From: a virus
Lineage: Duplodnaviria > Heunggongvirae > Uroviricota > Caudoviricetes
Direction: 5' to 3' (one strand)
Virus record (IMG/VR): IMGVR_UViG_3300021400_000025
Coordinates: 86,479 to 150,478 of that record
Length of the DNA stretch: 64,000 nt
Part shown: piece by piece, positions 21,826 through 56,570 of the stretch
Layout: every line of letters begins with the position of its first letter
Position numbering within the stretch: position 1 is the first letter of the stretch
Translations under genes and position numbers: made by a program
Notes under the pieces: generated by a model
What the model saw: the letters and a program-made list of their open reading frames with translations, nothing else
Told to the model about the DNA's origin: nothing
The model's database searches: none

Positions 21826-21897
21826 TTGAAATTGATTGGCTCTCATAAGCCAATTATCAACCTCCCCTGTCCGCAGGAGAGGTTTTGTTTTTGACCC
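21826..21897 (+). terminator. two hairpins (attggct/agccaat and cctcccctg/caggagagg) followed by ttttgttttt
   Basis: Stem-loop plus U-tract read directly in the sequence, located between gene 21437..21817 and the promoter at 21902. Confidence 0.5.
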
Positions 21898-21930
21898 CCT
21901 TTACATCCCATCCCAAATGTGGTATACTAT
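21895..21930 (+). promoter_or_regulatory. early promoter (ACCCCC-TTTACA-N17-TGTGGTATACTATAGGTG)
   Basis: Member of a conserved promoter family occurring at least 9 times in this window. Confidence 0.55.
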
Positions 21931-21932
21931 AG

Positions 21933-22346
21933 GTGACAGGAAGGAATACAACGATGACAAATGGACGAATTGGAATCTTGAAGGATAATGGACAGGTTGA
22001 GTCAATCTACGTCCATTGCGATGCTGACCTCATTGGCAAGGTGTTGAAGAAGCACTATCTTGACAAGGCGAAGGTTGAGAAGCTGATTTCCCTTGGGGAC
22101 TGCTCTTCCATTGGACCCGAGGTTGAACCCCCAAAGGGAGCAGAGCATTCCTATGACAATCCCATTGAGAACGTCACGGTTGCATATGTCCGGGACAGGG
22201 GAGAGGATTGGGAAGATTGCCAACCAATTCTCCATCTGGACGAAGACGCATTCTGGAAGTCCGACTTTGGCTATTATGGCTATCTCTACAAGGATGGCGC
22301 GTGGTGGACGATGAAGAAACATGGTTCAACGCCAAAGAAGGTATGA
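21933..22346 (+). CDS. hypothetical protein (137 aa)
   Basis: ORF track. An SD (aggaagg) and an early promoter lie upstream. Confidence 0.55.
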   Translation: MTGRNTTMTNGRIGILKDNGQVESIYVHCDADLIGKVLKKHYLDKAKVEKLISLGDCSSIGPEVEPPKGAEHSYDNPIENVTVAYVRDRGEDWEDCQPILHLDEDAFWKSDFGYYGYLYKDGAWWTMKKHGSTPKKV

Positions 22347-22360
22347 AATATCTGACGACG

Positions 22361-22398
22361 CCCTTGACTTCATGGCGAGGATATGATATACTATAGGC
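22361..22398 (+). promoter_or_regulatory. early promoter (CCCTTGACTT-N17-GATATACTATAGG)
   Basis: Member of the conserved promoter family. Confidence 0.5.
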
Positions 22399-22434
22399 AT
22401 CAACTGAATTGATGAAGAAAGAAGGATAAGAAAC

Positions 22435-22677
22435 ATGACGATTGAATATCATTCTGAGGAAGATGACTATGGGATCTCTGACCACATGTCGGTGTTCGAC
22501 GACACTGGCAAGAAGATTGAGCAGGAATCAGTCTACCCTCTGTGCGAACGTCCTGAGGATGCGATCATTGGACGTGGACTGATATCATGCGACAGAATCA
22601 TCGACCTCATGCAACTTGCCTACAATGCTGGCAAAAATGGTGAAGAATTCGTCCTTAAAGTAAAGAGTATTGAATGA
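22435..22677 (+). CDS. hypothetical protein (80 aa)
   Basis: ORF track. SD aagaaggataag. Confidence 0.5.
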   Translation: MTIEYHSEEDDYGISDHMSVFDDTGKKIEQESVYPLCERPEDAIIGRGLISCDRIIDLMQLAYNAGKNGEEFVLKVKSIE

Positions 22678-22695
22678 GAGGGGCATTAAGATACC

Positions 22696-23010
22696 ATGGA
22701 CATTGGAGAATACAGACTTGAGAAGTCAACCGACCTCTATGACATCAAGGTGTCAAGGTGGGTGTGTTGGTGTCCAGTGTTCACAATCAAGGGTCAGAAT
22801 GCTGAAGTCAAGGACTTTGGAGATTGGGATGACATTGAACCTCATCGCGAGGACAAGCCAGAACATGGTTGTGGGAACATGACCTTCACACCAAAGCCTG
22901 CAACCCAGAAGGTTCTTGACAAGTATGGCATAACGGTTGATGAGTATAACGAGATTGCGTCTGTGCTTGAAGATGGGCTTTCGTTTGGATATTGTGGTTT
23001 GTGTTCATGA
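22696..23010 (+). CDS. hypothetical protein (104 aa)
   Basis: ORF track. Confidence 0.5.
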   Translation: MDIGEYRLEKSTDLYDIKVSRWVCWCPVFTIKGQNAEVKDFGDWDDIEPHREDKPEHGCGNMTFTPKPATQKVLDKYGITVDEYNEIASVLEDGLSFGYCGLCS

Positions 23011-23183
23011 TGGATTGTTGTATAATTGATGTGTGTGGCAGAGAAGTAAAGACTGTTGTCCTGGAGGAAATGGGTTGGTTTGCGATGGACAATGACCGCG
23101 GCGAGTCTTCCAATGGGGTAATTAATGGCGTTGATGAGACGCAAGAACCATTGGTCTAGAGCCTTGCGGTGAGGATTTAAGAT

Positions 23184-54009: not shown

Positions 54010-54276
54010 ATGAAGATGATGGCGAGAGGAGAGGACACCCGCTACTGGTTAGCAGTGGTTCGAGTGGACGGCAAGGTCGTCCCACAGTTCGGTGGGAAGC
54101 CAGTAAATTGGCTAACAGCACATAGCCGAATGGAGAGGTTCAAGAATATGAAGAGATACTGGATTGGAGCGGGTGAGTTCCCAGTAAAGTCACTGAGGTT
54201 GGTTGAGATCACGACCAAGTGGAAGCGAGTAGTGGAGAGCGAGGACAAGACAACCACGAAGGAAGAGGATATTTAG
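54010..54276 (+). CDS. hypothetical protein (88 aa), TAG-terminated
   Basis: ORF track. Confidence 0.45.
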   Translation: MKMMARGEDTRYWLAVVRVDGKVVPQFGGKPVNWLTAHSRMERFKNMKRYWIGAGEFPVKSLRLVEITTKWKRVVESEDKTTTKEEDI

Positions 54277-54292
54277 GAAAGGAGAACGAGAC

Positions 54293-54835
54293 ATGTACGG
54301 AGACAAGAACACAATCAAGGACAAGTTGCCGAGCTGGTGGAAGTATGGCGACCCTCTCTACTACTGCGAAGAGGACGACACCCTTTGGACTTCCCAGGAA
54401 GAAGTGTCAATCCATTGGTATGACATCCGCATCAATAACATCGTGAATCTTCTCAACAAGGCGCGAAACGAAGCTGCGGAGCATCTGGCTGGAATGAGCA
54501 GATGCAAGAGCATGTATCCCATATACCAGAAGGAGATTGACAAAGCCAACGAACGGCTCAAGGTGCTTCTGGCTTCAAGGGATTGGCGCGAGACGAACAG
54601 CTCCCATGCCGACAAGAGGCGCGAGGTGGTGACTCTTCAGTACAAGAGGTACGAGTGGCTTGACAAACTCCACAAGGAGCAGCGGACGTTTGCTCAGCTG
54701 AAGGTGGCGTACAAGATGGCGAAGGAGGCTGTGGCTGACTTTGAGAAGATGCTCAAGGAGTATCAGACCAAAAGGGATGCCACAAGGGAACACTGGAACA
54801 AGGCGCAGGAAGCTGAGAAGAACAAGGAGAAATGA
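54293..54835 (+). CDS. hypothetical protein (180 aa)
   Basis: ORF track. SD aggaaaggagaacg. Confidence 0.5.
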   Translation: MYGDKNTIKDKLPSWWKYGDPLYYCEEDDTLWTSQEEVSIHWYDIRINNIVNLLNKARNEAAEHLAGMSRCKSMYPIYQKEIDKANERLKVLLASRDWRETNSSHADKRREVVTLQYKRYEWLDKLHKEQRTFAQLKVAYKMAKEAVADFEKMLKEYQTKRDATREHWNKAQEAEKNKEK

Positions 54836-55275
54836 AAATGGAGAACTGGATTCCAATAGACGAGTCTACTCTTGTTTGCGAAATGGCGAACAAGAACAAG
54901 GCTCAGACCCATCTACCGATGAACATTTGGATTGACGAAAACCAGACCTACATCAATGGACATCATTCCAAGAGGGTGAAGTTTCAGCTTGACCATGGGA
55001 ATCGAATGAACCTATCCAGATTTGGGACTATGGACTTGAATGGAAACCTTCACTGTGAGGACATTGGAGAATTGAGCCAAGAAGACATCAATGCGCTTCG
55101 CAATTTCGTTCTGAACAACAAAACAGCACTCGAACATGTTGCTGACAACGACATTTGGTTGGACGAAATCTGGCCGAGCATCATATTGGGTGGAGAACCG
55201 GCATCATTTGAGGAAATCCAAAAGTTGAACCTCAAAGTGGATGAACTGATAGAGTACAACAACTCGCTGGATTGA
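54832..55275 (+). CDS. hypothetical protein (147 aa)
   Basis: ORF track. Confidence 0.5.
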   Translation: MKMENWIPIDESTLVCEMANKNKAQTHLPMNIWIDENQTYINGHHSKRVKFQLDHGNRMNLSRFGTMDLNGNLHCEDIGELSQEDINALRNFVLNNKTALEHVADNDIWLDEIWPSIILGGEPASFEEIQKLNLKVDELIEYNNSLD

Positions 55276-55607
55276 TGCGAGAAGGAGCAGACAAAATGAC
55301 ACTCTACATGAAGAAGAGCCCGATTTACTACACCATCTTCATACAGGGCTTCAAGGACAAGAATGGGTGGTATCTCTCCAACGAGGATGAGATTGACGAG
55401 TTTGCGAAGAAGTTCAACTTGGACTGGCACTGGAACATGAGGAAGGGGGTTCTTTCATTCAAGGACAAGTCAGATGGGGAAAAGATCTATAGACCTGGAT
55501 ATGTCCAGATTGGGGATGTTGTTGCAGCCTATGACGATTGGGGGACATTGCGTGTTGAGGTCTGTACTTCCGAGGAATTCGAGAAGAAGTTCATCAAGGT
55601 TGACTAA
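55272..55607 (+). CDS. hypothetical protein (111 aa)
   Basis: ORF track. Confidence 0.5.
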   Translation: MMREGADKMTLYMKKSPIYYTIFIQGFKDKNGWYLSNEDEIDEFAKKFNLDWHWNMRKGVLSFKDKSDGEKIYRPGYVQIGDVVAAYDDWGTLRVEVCTSEEFEKKFIKVD

Positions 55608-55850
55608 ATGGAGAAACTGACAATGGCAACTAAGAAACCTGCAATCACTGAGATCAAGGACTTCAATGGAACTCCCGTCCATGTTGGGGACAAGATTGTG
55701 TATATTGAAAAGACCTATTGCACCGCCGGTTTGGCATTTGGAACTGTAATTGGATTGTCAAAGGTGTTTGGCAGAGATTGTGTTGTGGTTGAAGACGGGT
55801 TCGGTTTCAAGTCAAAGCCAACATCGCAAAGCATCTACAAGGTGAATTGA
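55608..55850 (+). CDS. hypothetical protein (80 aa)
   Basis: ORF track. Confidence 0.45.
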   Translation: MEKLTMATKKPAITEIKDFNGTPVHVGDKIVYIEKTYCTAGLAFGTVIGLSKVFGRDCVVVEDGFGFKSKPTSQSIYKVN

Positions 55851-55853
55851 TTC

Positions 55854-56150
55854 ATGGACACACCATCAATTGAGGAACGCATTGCCGATTTCCAGAGGCA
55901 ATTGGATGTGGTGAGGGAGAAGATGAAGAGAGTGGAGGAATCGTCCCCCAAAATCTACATCAACCTCCGCCAGTACATGAATCGGCTCAGAGAACTCAAG
56001 GGCAAGGAACTTGACAGCAAGGATGAATTGGATTTCGTCCGCCACCAAGTCAAGGCTTTGCTTGCCGACAAGGAGCAGATTGAGAAGGAATATCAGGAGT
56101 TGAAGCAGAAGGAACGTGAGATTCTTCTGTACATTGAAGAACTCAAATAG
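55854..56150 (+). CDS. coiled-coil protein (98 aa), TAG-terminated
   Basis: ORF track. Confidence 0.45.
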   Translation: MDTPSIEERIADFQRQLDVVREKMKRVEESSPKIYINLRQYMNRLRELKGKELDSKDELDFVRHQVKALLADKEQIEKEYQELKQKEREILLYIEELK

Positions 56151-56164
56151 AAAGGAAACTGACA

Positions 56165-56536
56165 ATGGCTGCGAAATTCAAGATTGACAAGTTGAAGGGC
56201 TTCTTCAAGACCATGGCTGAAATCGAAAAGCGAATTGAGGAGATTGCACCGCTCTGCACGGACATCACTTCACGCGAGGACATCATTGGATTCAGCTACG
56301 ACGATGACGGCAGCATTATCATAAGGGTGTATAGCAGCGACTGTGGCAACGATGCCTATTGGTTCCCGCTTGAATATCTCGCCATGGATGACGAGGAGAT
56401 TCTGAAGTCCGAGAAGAAAAAGGACGAATTGGCAAGGAAACTTCGGGAGCAAGAGGAACTCAAGGAGAAAAAGGCAAAGGAGAGGGCTGAACGCAAGGAA
56501 TACGAACGCCTCAAGAAGAAGTACGAGGGTAGTTGA
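56165..56536 (+). CDS. hypothetical protein (123 aa) with a K/E-rich C-terminus
   Basis: ORF track. Confidence 0.5.
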   Translation: MAAKFKIDKLKGFFKTMAEIEKRIEEIAPLCTDITSREDIIGFSYDDDGSIIIRVYSSDCGNDAYWFPLEYLAMDDEEILKSEKKKDELARKLREQEELKEKKAKERAERKEYERLKKKYEGS

Positions 56537-56570
56537 CAACCTGCCAGAAATGTGATATAATATAGGTGTT
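56531..56570 (+). promoter_or_regulatory. early promoter (TTGACA-N18-TGTGATATAATATAGGTG)
   Basis: Member of the conserved promoter family. Confidence 0.5.

What the first reader, a model, noticed from the sequence alone, without database searches (positions are those of the whole stretch)
21895..56570. Highly conserved early promoter family ACCCCC-TTGACT-N17-TGTGATATACTATAGGTG (at least 9 copies)
Copies lie at 21895, 22361, 24886, 26766, 32599, 34147, 46750, 52986 and 56531. Conservation extends beyond the -35 and -10 (the ACCCCC 5' block, a TG-extended -10, and a TATAGGTG 3' block). In two copies (24886 and 46750) the -35 sits in the loop of a CCCCC/GGGGG hairpin that is followed by Ts, which might act as an attenuator or readthrough terminator. 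Many other genes use plain TGnTATAAT.
Basis: seen in the sequence. Interest (0 to 1): 0.5.

Follow-up and report, generated by a model that had tools for sequence, protein, structure and literature searches.

The report
Strong host-type promoter family in megaphage
Nine near-identical copies of a textbook-strength bacterial promoter, some fused to a terminator hairpin, sit in front of gene blocks of a ~418-kb uncultivated phage; this is what large phages such as T4 are already known to do, so it is a real but largely ordinary feature.

Summary
There are nine copies, all on the + strand and all intergenic, each 20-55 nt upstream of an SD+ATG (9 found vs 0.01 expected). Each copy carries every known element of an optimal Firmicute housekeeping-sigma promoter: TTGAC(T/A), a 17-nt spacer (one of 18), a TRTG -16 motif, TATA(C/A)T, an AT/AG-rich discriminator, and a Y-R-Y start triplet 7 bp after the -10. 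The family is conserved in related rumen/gut phage contigs: 45 non-redundant copies, some at orthologous positions. Three window copies carry a terminator-like hairpin, one just upstream of the -35 and two enclosing it. The enclosing hairpins are kept at orthologous sites. About half of the gene-content differences between relatives abut a family promoter. The closest known analogue is the T4-like "PeSL" promoter/stem-loop cassette and the T4 "über" early promoters. The block next to the -35 remains unexplained. It is RACCCCC in most copies but AAAGGGGTA in a sister subclade, so it is a G·C tract rather than an AT-rich UP element. The phage also encodes a divergent sigma factor just outside the window. 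That gene has its own sigma-A-type promoter, and a separate motif (TKGTAAATA, 12 copies) is the better candidate for the phage sigma. Verdict: new member of a known kind. "Early" timing is inferred, not shown.

The parts
21893..21935 (+). Family promoter 1: GACCCCC, -35 TTTACA 21900-05, TGTG, -10 TATACT 21923-28, predicted +1 at about 21935. It drives ORF 21954-22346 (phrog_1987).
21859..21892 (+). Terminator-like hairpin (AACCTCCCCTG/CAGGAGAGGTT, -13.7 kcal/mol, z -3.4) plus TTTGTTTTT, immediately upstream of promoter 1.
22357..22399 (+). Family promoter 2: GACGCCC, TTGACT 22364-69, TATG, TATACT 22387-92. It drives ORF 22435-22677.
24886..24928 (+). Family promoter 3: GACCCCC, TTTACA 24893-98, TGTG, TATAAT 24916-21. 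It drives the RNA ligase gene 24956-26128. The CCCCC/GGGGG hairpin 24888-24906 encloses the -35 and is followed by ATTTTGTGG.
   Evidence: orthologue L028-1163 keeps the hairpin
26766..26808 (+). Family promoter 4: GACCCCC, TTGACT 26773-78, TATG, GATAAT 26796-801. It is followed by the leader hairpin 26821-26841 and ORF 26858-27145.
32598..32640 (+). Family promoter 5: AACCCCC, TTGACT 32605-10, TGTG, TATACT 32628-33. It forms the left edge of a promoter+2-ORF cassette (32599-33128) that is absent from relative L027.
34147..34189 (+). Family promoter 6: GACCCCC (GA comes from the upstream stop codon), TTGACT 34154-59, TGTG, TATACT 34177-82. It drives 34228-34992. It is a synteny breakpoint in L027, L062, L006 and L004.
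46750..46793 (+). Family promoter 7: AACCCCC, TTGACT 46757-62, 18-nt spacer, TGTG, TATACT 46781-86. The hairpin 46750-46774 (-14 kcal/mol) encloses the -35 and is followed by TTTGTGG. The leader hairpin 46808-46830 and ORF 46847-47377 follow.
52986..53028 (+). Family promoter 8: AACCCCA, TTGACT 52993-98, TATG, TATACT 53016-21. It drives 53047-53214 and the C-terminal half of a split NAD-ligase (53229-53993).
56526..56568 (+). Family promoter 9: upstream block GAGGGTAG (coding, G-type-like), TTGACA 56533-38 (contains the upstream gene's TGA stop), TGTG, TATAAT 56556-61. It drives the NAD-ligase adenylation/OB gene 56591-57697.
43625..43658 (+). Partial tenth member: CCCCC-TTTACT-N17-TATACT, lacking TRTG and ATAGGTG. 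It lies inside the 3' end of gene 42251-43645, upstream of 43664-44320.

Best explanation
These are strong promoters read by the host's housekeeping (sigma-A/sigma-70-type) RNA polymerase holoenzyme. Each heads a short transcription unit of 1-8 genes in the nucleic-acid-metabolism / host-takeover part of a ~418-kb phage genome. They most likely fire immediately after infection.

Every conserved block except one matches a known RNAP contact:
- the -35 (sigma region 4)
- TRTG and the -10 (sigma regions 3.0 and 2.4)
- the AT/AG-rich discriminator ATAGG
- the T-G-T start triplet centred 7 bp after the -10, which predicts initiation at that G

About a quarter to a third of copies are fused to a hairpin plus T-run, placed either just upstream of the -35 or enclosing it. 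This hairpin would stop read-through from the preceding unit at the point where the new unit starts, making the element a compact terminator-promoter cassette. Because the ~45-bp cassette is repeated, it also marks (and may promote) the sites where genes are gained, lost and swapped between related phages.

Shown: sequence features, positions, conservation, association with synteny breaks. Inferred: RNAP recognition, start site, timing, termination, and any role in recombination. Unexplained: the G·C tract at about -37 to -42.
For: Statistics: 9 copies vs 0.01 expected, with a clear score gap to the next site.

Anatomy: 9 of 9 copies have TTGAC(T/A) or TTTACA at 17 nt (one at 18) from TATA(C/A)T or GATAAT, with TRTG. 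The start triplet 7 bp downstream of the -10 is TGT x5, CAT, TGA and GGT x2. This matches the YRY 'start' element, the AT/AG-rich Terrabacteria discriminator and the Firmicute TRTG motif described in PMC12641261.

Position: all copies are intergenic, co-directional with the genes, and 20-55 nt upstream of SD+ATG. Several start at the stop codon of the upstream gene.

Conservation: there are 45 non-redundant copies in related contigs, with orthologous copies for 24886, 26766, 34147, 46750 and 52986. Spacers differ between non-orthologous copies, so the blocks are under selection rather than recently duplicated.

Host type: the same exact pattern occurs only 10 times in 596 Gb of species-representative genomes, 8 of them in Clostridia, but 5 times in this 64-kb window.

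Polymerase: none of about 114 window ORFs has an RNAP or sigma domain. The phage sigma gene just outside the window is itself driven by GAAGGGCA-TTGACA-N17(TATG)-TATAAT, so host polymerase must read this architecture first.

Terminators: a hairpin plus T-run is found in 10 of 45 copies vs 1.1±1.3 in shuffles. Hairpin energies are -10 to -18 kcal/mol. The hairpins are kept at orthologous sites, with an arm swap in L111.

Shuffling: by my hand count, roughly 10 of about 21 gene-content differences between the window and relatives abut a family promoter, although such promoters occupy only about 12% of gene junctions.
Against: - There is no transcript or in-vitro data, so initiation, start site, strength and timing are all inferred.
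- The host is unknown.
- The block next to the -35 is G·C-rich where strong promoters usually have an AT-rich UP element. No known RNAP contact explains it.
- The phage encodes a divergent sigma factor whose specificity is unknown.
- Only 64 of 418 kb (plus about 18 kb of flanks) was examined.
- The -35-enclosing hairpin is not a family-wide trait (permutation P = 0.25).
- The breakpoint count was made by hand and post hoc.
- The U-tracts of the overlapping hairpins are short (UUUUGUGG).
Confidence: 0.75

Rival explanations
1. The family is read by the phage-encoded sigma-70-family protein (260 aa, encoded about 2.4-3.2 kb upstream of the window start) rather than by host sigma-A. On this reading the extra conserved blocks are that sigma's specificity determinants.
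For: A divergent sigma with regions 2 and 4 exists in the same genome. The family carries clade-specific conservation outside the canonical hexamers, and the upstream block changes type between phage subclades.
Against: The core is a near-perfect sigma-A consensus including the region-3.0-dependent TRTG motif, whereas alternative sigmas normally have divergent -10/-35 elements. The sigma gene's own promoter has the same core, so host polymerase must recognise it. A different over-represented motif, TKGTAAATA, is a better candidate for the phage sigma: it has 12 copies vs 0.29 expected, no -35, and lies 20-95 nt upstream of start codons.
Confidence: 0.08
2. These are sigma-A promoters whose adjacent G·C-tract block (RACCCCC or AAAGGGGTA, at -36 to -44) is the binding site of a phage-encoded or virion-delivered factor. 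That factor would boost them over host promoters or shut them off on schedule. This adds to the main explanation rather than replacing it.
For: The block is conserved (26 C-type and 14 G-type among 45 copies) in a position where RNAP alpha-CTD normally prefers A-tracts. The G-type block is the reverse complement of the C-type core (TACCCCTTT vs ACCCCCTT). Orthologous promoters carry the C-type in one subclade and the G-type in another (52986/L056 vs L111-12779; 46750/L025 vs L111-6927), as expected for co-evolution with a trans factor. The five plain promoters listed lack the block; the partial member at 43625 carries it.
Against: No candidate DNA-binding protein was identified. Homogenisation of copies by recombination within a genome would give the same pattern. 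A 5-bp tract is short for a specific site. The same CCCCC-TTGACA arrangement appears sporadically in unrelated Clostridia and hot-spring bacteria, although those hits were selected for it.
Confidence: 0.2
3. The repeats are primarily recombination or mobility linkers (PeSL-like, or a miniature mobile element). On this reading their conservation comes from gene conversion rather than from selection for transcription.
For: About half of the gene-content differences abut a copy. L062 has two tandem copies flanking one small ORF. A ~45-nt module with a poly-C run is inserted into the C block of non-orthologous promoters in two genomes.
Against: Spacers are not conserved between non-orthologous copies, while the RNAP-contact positions are. 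Strict orientation and a fixed distance to SD/ATG are not needed for recombination. Operon starts are tolerant insertion sites in any case.
Confidence: 0.07
4. These are promoters for a T7-like single-subunit phage RNA polymerase, since ACTATAGG matches the T7/K11 core -7 to +2.
For: There is an 8/8 match of ATACTATAGG to the T7-type ACTATAGG (own knowledge of the T7 promoter), and a contiguous conserved block about 21 nt long.
Against: A conserved -35 hexamer at fixed 17-nt spacing in 9 of 9 copies is unexplained by this model. TATACT alternates with TATAAT, as in sigma-70 -10 elements. No RNAP domain was found in the window ORFs.
Confidence: 0.02

Closest known systems
PeSLs (promoter-early stem-loops) of T4-like phages RB49/phi1, PST, nt-1 (Arbiol et al. 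2010, PMC2839356; Comeau et al. 2014, PMC4122927)
   Same: Both are repeated intergenic cassettes combining a strong sigma-70-type promoter with a polyG/polyC stem-loop that can lie upstream of, or overlap, the -35. Both start at the upstream stop codon and end at the SD/ATG. Both are preferentially found at insertion, deletion and replacement boundaries between close relatives.
   Different: The phage lineage is unrelated (no T4-like genes recognised) and the host is probably a Clostridial Gram-positive. [quoted passage not shown] A stem-loop is present in only about a quarter of copies. Mini-circle formation and terminator/promoter activity have not been tested here.
T4 early 'über' UP/-35/TGn/-10 promoters (Hinton 2010 review, PMC2988021)
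   Same: Both are a family of host-RNAP promoters that match all recognition elements and show additional consensus beyond them. This lets the phage out-compete host promoters immediately after infection.
   Different: T4 early promoters carry an A/T-rich UP element, and their activity is tuned by Alt ADP-ribosylation. Here the upstream element is a C or G tract, and no modifying enzyme was identified.
Optimal Firmicute sigma-A promoter architecture: TRTG -16 region, AT/AG-rich discriminator, YRY start element (Kuo et al. 2025, PMC12641261)
   Same: The downstream block TRTGnTATAMT-ATAGG-TGT maps element by element onto this architecture. The spacer follows the AT / GC / AT / G-rich four-region pattern.
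   Different: Host promoters vary at these positions. Here they are nearly invariant across copies and across related genomes.
T4 late promoters (TATAAATA, gp55 sigma), for the second motif noticed (TKGTAAATA)
   Same: Both have a short -10-like A/T-rich element without a -35, in a phage that encodes its own divergent sigma.
   Different: This is pure analogy. No link between the motif and the phage sigma was tested.

Membership tests
Housekeeping sigma-70/sigma-A promoter | -35 hexamer close to TTGACA | tested here: met
   TTGACT x6, TTGACA x1, TTTACA x2
Housekeeping sigma-70/sigma-A promoter | -10 hexamer close to TATAAT at 17±1 bp from the -35 | tested here: met
   TATACT x6, TATAAT x2, GATAAT x1. 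The spacer is 17 nt in 8 copies and 18 nt in 1.
Housekeeping sigma-70/sigma-A promoter | Extended -10 / Gram-positive TRTG -16 motif | tested here: met
   TGTG or TATG in 9 of 9 copies. The motif is defined in PMC12641261.
Housekeeping sigma-70/sigma-A promoter | Located upstream of, and co-oriented with, a gene; purine start about 7 nt after the -10 | tested here: met
   All copies are intergenic on the + strand, 20-55 nt from SD+ATG. Y-R at -1/+1 in 7 of 9.
Housekeeping sigma-70/sigma-A promoter | Transcription initiates there with sigma-A holoenzyme | not testable with these tools
   Needs 5'-end mapping or in-vitro transcription.
PeSL (T4-like promoter-early stem-loop cassette) | Strong sigma-70-like promoter repeated in intergenic regions | tested here: met
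PeSL (T4-like promoter-early stem-loop cassette) | Stem-loop (often polyG/polyC) upstream of, between, or overlapping the -35/-10, acting as a terminator | tested here: inconclusive
   Present in 3 of 9 window copies and 10 of 45 clade copies, vs 1.1 expected, and conserved at orthologous sites. Not family-wide. Termination was not tested.
PeSL (T4-like promoter-early stem-loop cassette) | [quoted passage not shown] | tested here: not met
   The upstream block is RACCCCC or AAAGGGGTA.
PeSL (T4-like promoter-early stem-loop cassette) | Sits at indel/replacement boundaries between close relatives | tested here: met
   Examples: the cassette 32599-33128; replacement after the 34147 orthologues; L025 and L062. 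The count was made by hand (about 10 of about 21).
PeSL (T4-like promoter-early stem-loop cassette) | Recombination between copies yields mini-circles; member of the T4-like myoviruses | not testable with these tools
   Mini-circles need PCR or long reads. No T4-like hallmark genes were recognised in the window.
T7-like single-subunit RNAP promoter | Contiguous ~23-bp consensus with no separate -35, and a cognate RNAP gene | tested here: not met
   A conserved -35 lies at fixed spacing. No RNAP domain was found in the window ORFs. The rest of the genome was not examined.
Activator-dependent phage middle promoter (T4 MotA-box type) | The -35 is replaced by an activator box | tested here: not met
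   The -35 is intact in all copies.
Intrinsic terminator (for the hairpins at 21859-21884, 24888-24906, 46750-46774) | GC-rich stem-loop followed by a U-tract, downstream of a transcription unit | tested here: met
   Stems of -10 to -14 kcal/mol with T-rich tails. A conserved upstream gene 24505-24750 with its own promoter at 24453 precedes the 24888 hairpin. Function was not tested.

The most novel reading that the evidence does not exclude
The G·C tract abutting the -35 is a previously undescribed promoter element or factor-binding site. It appears as RACCCCC on the top strand in one phage subclade and as AAAGGGGTA, its reverse complement, in another, and it is switched at orthologous promoters. 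On this reading it lets this megaphage clade mark its own early promoters for preferential use or timed shut-off, and it co-evolves with a phage-encoded or virion-delivered protein.
Probability: 0.15. Interest if true: 0.55.

Novelty: new member of a known kind. Interest (0 to 1): 0.33.

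Why it matters
It gives a ready-made transcription map for part of an uncultivated ~418-kb Firmicute-type megaphage. It also extends the PeSL idea of composite promoter/terminator cassettes as units of gene shuffling, outside T4-like phages of Gram-negative hosts.

The near-invariant 45-bp unit could serve as a portable strong promoter for Clostridia. The unexplained G·C tract and the coupled leader hairpin are concrete handles for finding phage regulators. None of this overturns current understanding.

Tried and rejected
1. The literal consensus search gave 0 hits, because the consensus is a composite and 'N17' was misplaced.
2. Megablast and tblastn against GenBank phages found nothing. 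PHROGs and Pfam found nothing for the large ORFs at 2-21 kb. The phage type therefore stays unassigned.
3. A protein-based search with the RNA ligase found no relatives in IMG/VR.
4. I tested whether the C block exists to pair with a G run in the spacer. This is rejected as a family-wide explanation: 7 of 45 copies have stems of 5 bp or more, permutation P = 0.25. It holds only at particular loci.
5. I tested whether the conserved GTGTTG at +1 pairs with CAAC(A) before the SD to form a 5'-terminal stabiliser hairpin. The evidence is weak: 60% of copies have 3 or more of the first 6 nt paired, but the energies are mostly -1 to -6 kcal/mol and the z-scores are unremarkable. I make no claim here.
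6. Rfam found no known RNA family at the promoters or leaders.
7. A literature string search for CCCCCTTGAC returned only unrelated primers.
8. The T7-like reading of ACTATAGG is rejected because of the fixed-spacing -35.

Full report
OBSERVATION. The 18-mer TGTGATATACTATAGGTG with up to 3 mismatches occurs 9 times, all on the + strand, against 0.01 expected in dinucleotide shuffles. A position-weight matrix spanning -42 to +6 scores the nine at 36-62 bits and the next best site at 12. The repeat finder recovers the family independently (D2/D3). The literal consensus has no exact copy, and the 'N17' is the inter-hexamer spacer. There are four deviations. Copy 46750 has an 18-nt spacer. Copy 22357 reads ACGCCC and copy 52986 reads ACCCCA. 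Copy 56526 lacks the C block because the upstream ORF runs into the -35, with its TGA stop lying inside TTGACA.

ANATOMY. Aligned, each copy reads [G/A]ACCCCC | TTGAC(T/A) or TTTACA | 12 variable nt | T(G/A)TG | n | TATA(C/A)T | ATAGG | TGT(T). The hexamers are 17 nt apart. TRTG is the Gram-positive '-16 region'. The discriminator is AT/AG-rich. The triplet centred 7 bp after the -10 is TGT in five copies, CAT and TGA in one each, and GGT in two. Kuo et al. 2025 (PMC12641261) describe four matching features:
- TRTG as typical of Firmicutes;
- an AT/AG-rich discriminator in Terrabacteria;
- a Y-R-Y 'start' element that fixes the start site when centred 7-8 bp after the -10;
- a four-region spacer (AT, GC, AT, G-rich), which these spacers follow.

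So everything from the -35 to +2 is accounted for by known RNAP contacts.

All copies are intergenic, co-oriented with the densely packed + strand genes, and 20-55 nt upstream of a strong SD and ATG. Several begin at the stop codon of the preceding gene. Identified downstream genes include an RNA ligase, both halves of a split NAD-dependent DNA ligase, and PHROG families of unknown function.

WHAT THE ELEMENT SITS IN. The window is bases 90,581-154,580 (reversed) of a 418,130-bp metagenomic contig, ENA ERZ1756080 NODE_700. A second assembly of 416,990 bp is 100% identical over the overlap. It has no nucleotide or protein match among GenBank phages for the regions tested. Related contigs are classed as viral in IMG/VR, at 201 kb and 414 kb. 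The window encodes a tRNA, RNA-repair enzymes, ThyX, a SAM lyase, a TET-associated glycosyltransferase and methyltransferases, but no RNAP or sigma domain. SD usage, the TRTG motif, and the fact that 8 of 10 exact pattern hits in 596 Gb of species-representative genomes are Clostridia all point to a Clostridial-type host. This host assignment is inferred.

COMPARATIVE EVIDENCE. Pattern scans of viral and metagenome collections, followed by tblastn, identified a clade of relatives. A scan that did not constrain the upstream block gave 45 non-redundant family promoters in the clade. Positions outside the scanned matrix are still conserved: TT after GTG, AA before TRTG, and the upstream block. 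Orthologous copies exist for five window promoters:
- 24886 (L028);
- 26766 (L028/L027, weaker);
- 34147 (L027, L062, L012);
- 46750 (L025, L111);
- 52986 (L056, L111).

Spacers are shared by orthologues but not by paralogous copies. The conserved blocks therefore reflect constraint, not recent copying.

HAIRPINS. Three window copies have a terminator-like hairpin plus T-run. In 21893 it lies just upstream (21859-21884, -13.7 kcal/mol, z = -3.4). In 24886 and 46750 it encloses the -35. Across the clade, 10 of 45 copies have such a hairpin, against 1.1±1.3 in shuffles. The 24886 hairpin is kept in L028 with a different loop and a longer stem. The 46750 hairpin is kept in L025 and also in the divergent L111, where the arms are swapped (GGGC...GCCC). 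However, complementarity between the upstream block and the spacer is not a family-wide property (P = 0.25). It therefore does not explain why the C block is conserved.

GENE SHUFFLING. Gene maps of the relatives show four cases:
- The promoter-plus-two-ORF cassette 32599-33128 is absent from L027 and begins exactly at the promoter.
- Downstream of the 34147 orthologue, L027, L062 and L012 carry unrelated genes. L062 has two tandem promoter copies flanking one small ORF.
- L025 shares the 46750-type promoter but has four different genes behind it, and it has another family promoter where synteny ends.
- ORF 26858-27145 is absent from L027 and L028.

By my hand count, about 10 of about 21 gene-content differences abut a family promoter, whereas such promoters occupy about 12% of junctions. 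This is the behaviour described for PeSLs in T4-like phages. PeSLs are strong sigma-70 promoters combined with polyG/polyC stem-loops that may overlap the -35, and they lie at indel boundaries (PMC2839356, PMC4122927). One defining PeSL trait, the AT-rich upstream region, is not met here.

THE UNEXPLAINED BLOCK. Immediately 5' of the -35, 26 of 45 copies have RACCCCC and 14 have AAAGGGGTA or a near variant. The core of the second form is the reverse complement of the first. G-type copies dominate in the contigs from sample 3300021399. At the orthologues of 46750 and 52986 the window has the C-type and L111 the G-type. The window's ninth copy (GAGGGTAG) and the sigma-gene promoter (GAAGGGCA) look G-type. 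C5 runs as such are not over-represented in the window (87 vs 115 expected), but RACCCCCTT is (8 vs 1.0). A G·C tract at -37 to -42 is the opposite of an UP element. Three readings remain open and untested: a site for a trans factor, a structural insulator, or a remnant kept uniform by recombination.

THE PHAGE SIGMA AND A SECOND MOTIF. About 2.4-3.2 kb before the window start, the genome encodes a 260-aa protein with Sigma70_r2 and r4. It passes only the sigma-70 superfamily model and is nearest to FliA/WhiG and SigB/F/G. This raises the rival that the family is read by the phage sigma. Three points argue against it:
- The family is a near-perfect sigma-A consensus.
- The sigma gene itself is preceded by GAAGGGCA-TTGACA-N17(TATG)-TATAAT.
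- A different motif, T(G/T)GTAAATA, occurs 12 times vs 0.29 expected. It lacks a -35, lies 20-95 nt upstream of start codons, and includes two back-to-back divergent pairs. It is reminiscent of T4 late TATAAATA promoters.

The simplest scheme, which is inferred, has two steps. Host RNAP fires the family and the sigma gene early, and the phage sigma then serves the TKGTAAATA class.

VERDICT. This is a real, highly significant and conserved family of host-type strong promoters, some fused to terminators. It behaves like T4 early promoters and PeSLs, but in an unrelated, uncultivated megaphage clade. It is a new member of a known kind. The G·C tract and the coupled leader hairpin (see 'noticed in passing') are the parts that could repay experiments.

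Noticed in passing
window 26821-26841 and 46808-46830; also L028 3095, L031, L061, L104, L105, L113, L114, L085 (two copies): A shared 5'-UTR stem-loop lies directly behind some family promoters. It has a 5-6-bp stem, a 9-11-nt loop of about YGCCYNNGAGU, a purine-rich GAGGGAnAAA before it, and A + SD + ATG after it. Seven different stem sequences give 5 of 6 pairs with double changes (partly circular, because the instances were picked with a pairing filter). The downstream genes encode at least 7 unrelated proteins. A covariance model found 2 further copies in a 414-kb relative. There is no Rfam match. It is a candidate translational operator or processing site for an early-gene regulon.
   Followed up: yes
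window 1959(-), 1982, 13496, 13889, 21405, 23820, 26123, 60075, 60365, 61112(-), 61135, 61921: A second over-represented motif, T(G/T)GTAAATA, has 12 copies vs 0.29 expected. It has no -35 and lies 20-95 nt upstream of start codons, with two divergent back-to-back pairs. It is a candidate promoter class for the phage-encoded sigma, analogous to T4 late TATAAATA.
   Followed up: partly
L129 4758-5540 (same genome, about 2.4-3.2 kb upstream of window position 1); its promoter is at L129 ~4690-4727: A phage-encoded, divergent sigma-70-family protein (260 aa, regions 2 and 4; nearest FliA/WhiG and SigB/F/G). It is driven by a sigma-A-type promoter with a G-type-like upstream block.
   Followed up: partly
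window 52939-52987 and 46721-46750; L062 ~275-324: A ~45-nt module, (C)8-12-ATTGATGCAATCAAGGTTTTGTTGATTTCATCAACAA, is inserted into the C block of promoter 52986. It is absent from orthologue L056. The same module is present in L062 at the orthologue of 34147, where the window lacks it. It contains TTGAT/ATCAA inverted repeats and a T-run (terminator-like), is flanked by a repeated CCCC(A)TTGA, and includes a C12 homopolymer.
   Followed up: partly
window 12184-12212, 24453-24481, 40890-40918, 45717-45745, 58957-58985: Five other strong intergenic sigma-70-like promoters form a plainer class (TTTAC(A/T)-N17-TATAAT). They lack both the C/G block and the ATAGGTG block.
   Followed up: partly
window 53229-53993 and 56591-57697: The NAD-dependent DNA ligase is split into two genes in inverted order: the C-terminal HhH/BRCT part lies first, and the adenylation+OB part lies 2.6 kb downstream. 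Each sits in a unit headed by a family promoter.
   Followed up: no
whole window; contig ENA ERZ1756080 NODE_700_length_418130: The window comes from a ~418-kb contig (megaphage size). A 100%-identical second assembly of 416,990 bp exists. The large ORFs at 2-21 kb have no Pfam or PHROG match at all.
   Followed up: partly
window 40385-63724 (ORF not pinned down): Pfam hits to a TET-associated glycosyltransferase, ThyX, an N6/N4 methyltransferase and an OrfB_IS605 (TnpB-like) domain. An S-adenosylmethionine lyase and Swiss-Army-Knife RNA-repair HAD domain lie at 21954-39754. Together these suggest hypermodified DNA and anti-defence functions.
   Followed up: no
window 23184-23259: tRNA-Arg (TCT).
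   Followed up: no
window 47426-50130; 28832-29901; 7923-7992: Two arrays of three tandem paralogous genes, and a perfect 18-nt tandem repeat (4 units) inside the 694-aa ORF.
   Followed up: no
L007, L010, L016 and about 30 other hot-spring metagenome loci: Two unrelated loci recur in many hot-spring metagenomes and carry CCCCC-TTGACA-N18-TGTGGTATACTATAGG. Because the search pattern required these blocks, these hits and the sporadic Clostridia hits say nothing about whether the architecture is enriched outside this clade.
   Followed up: no
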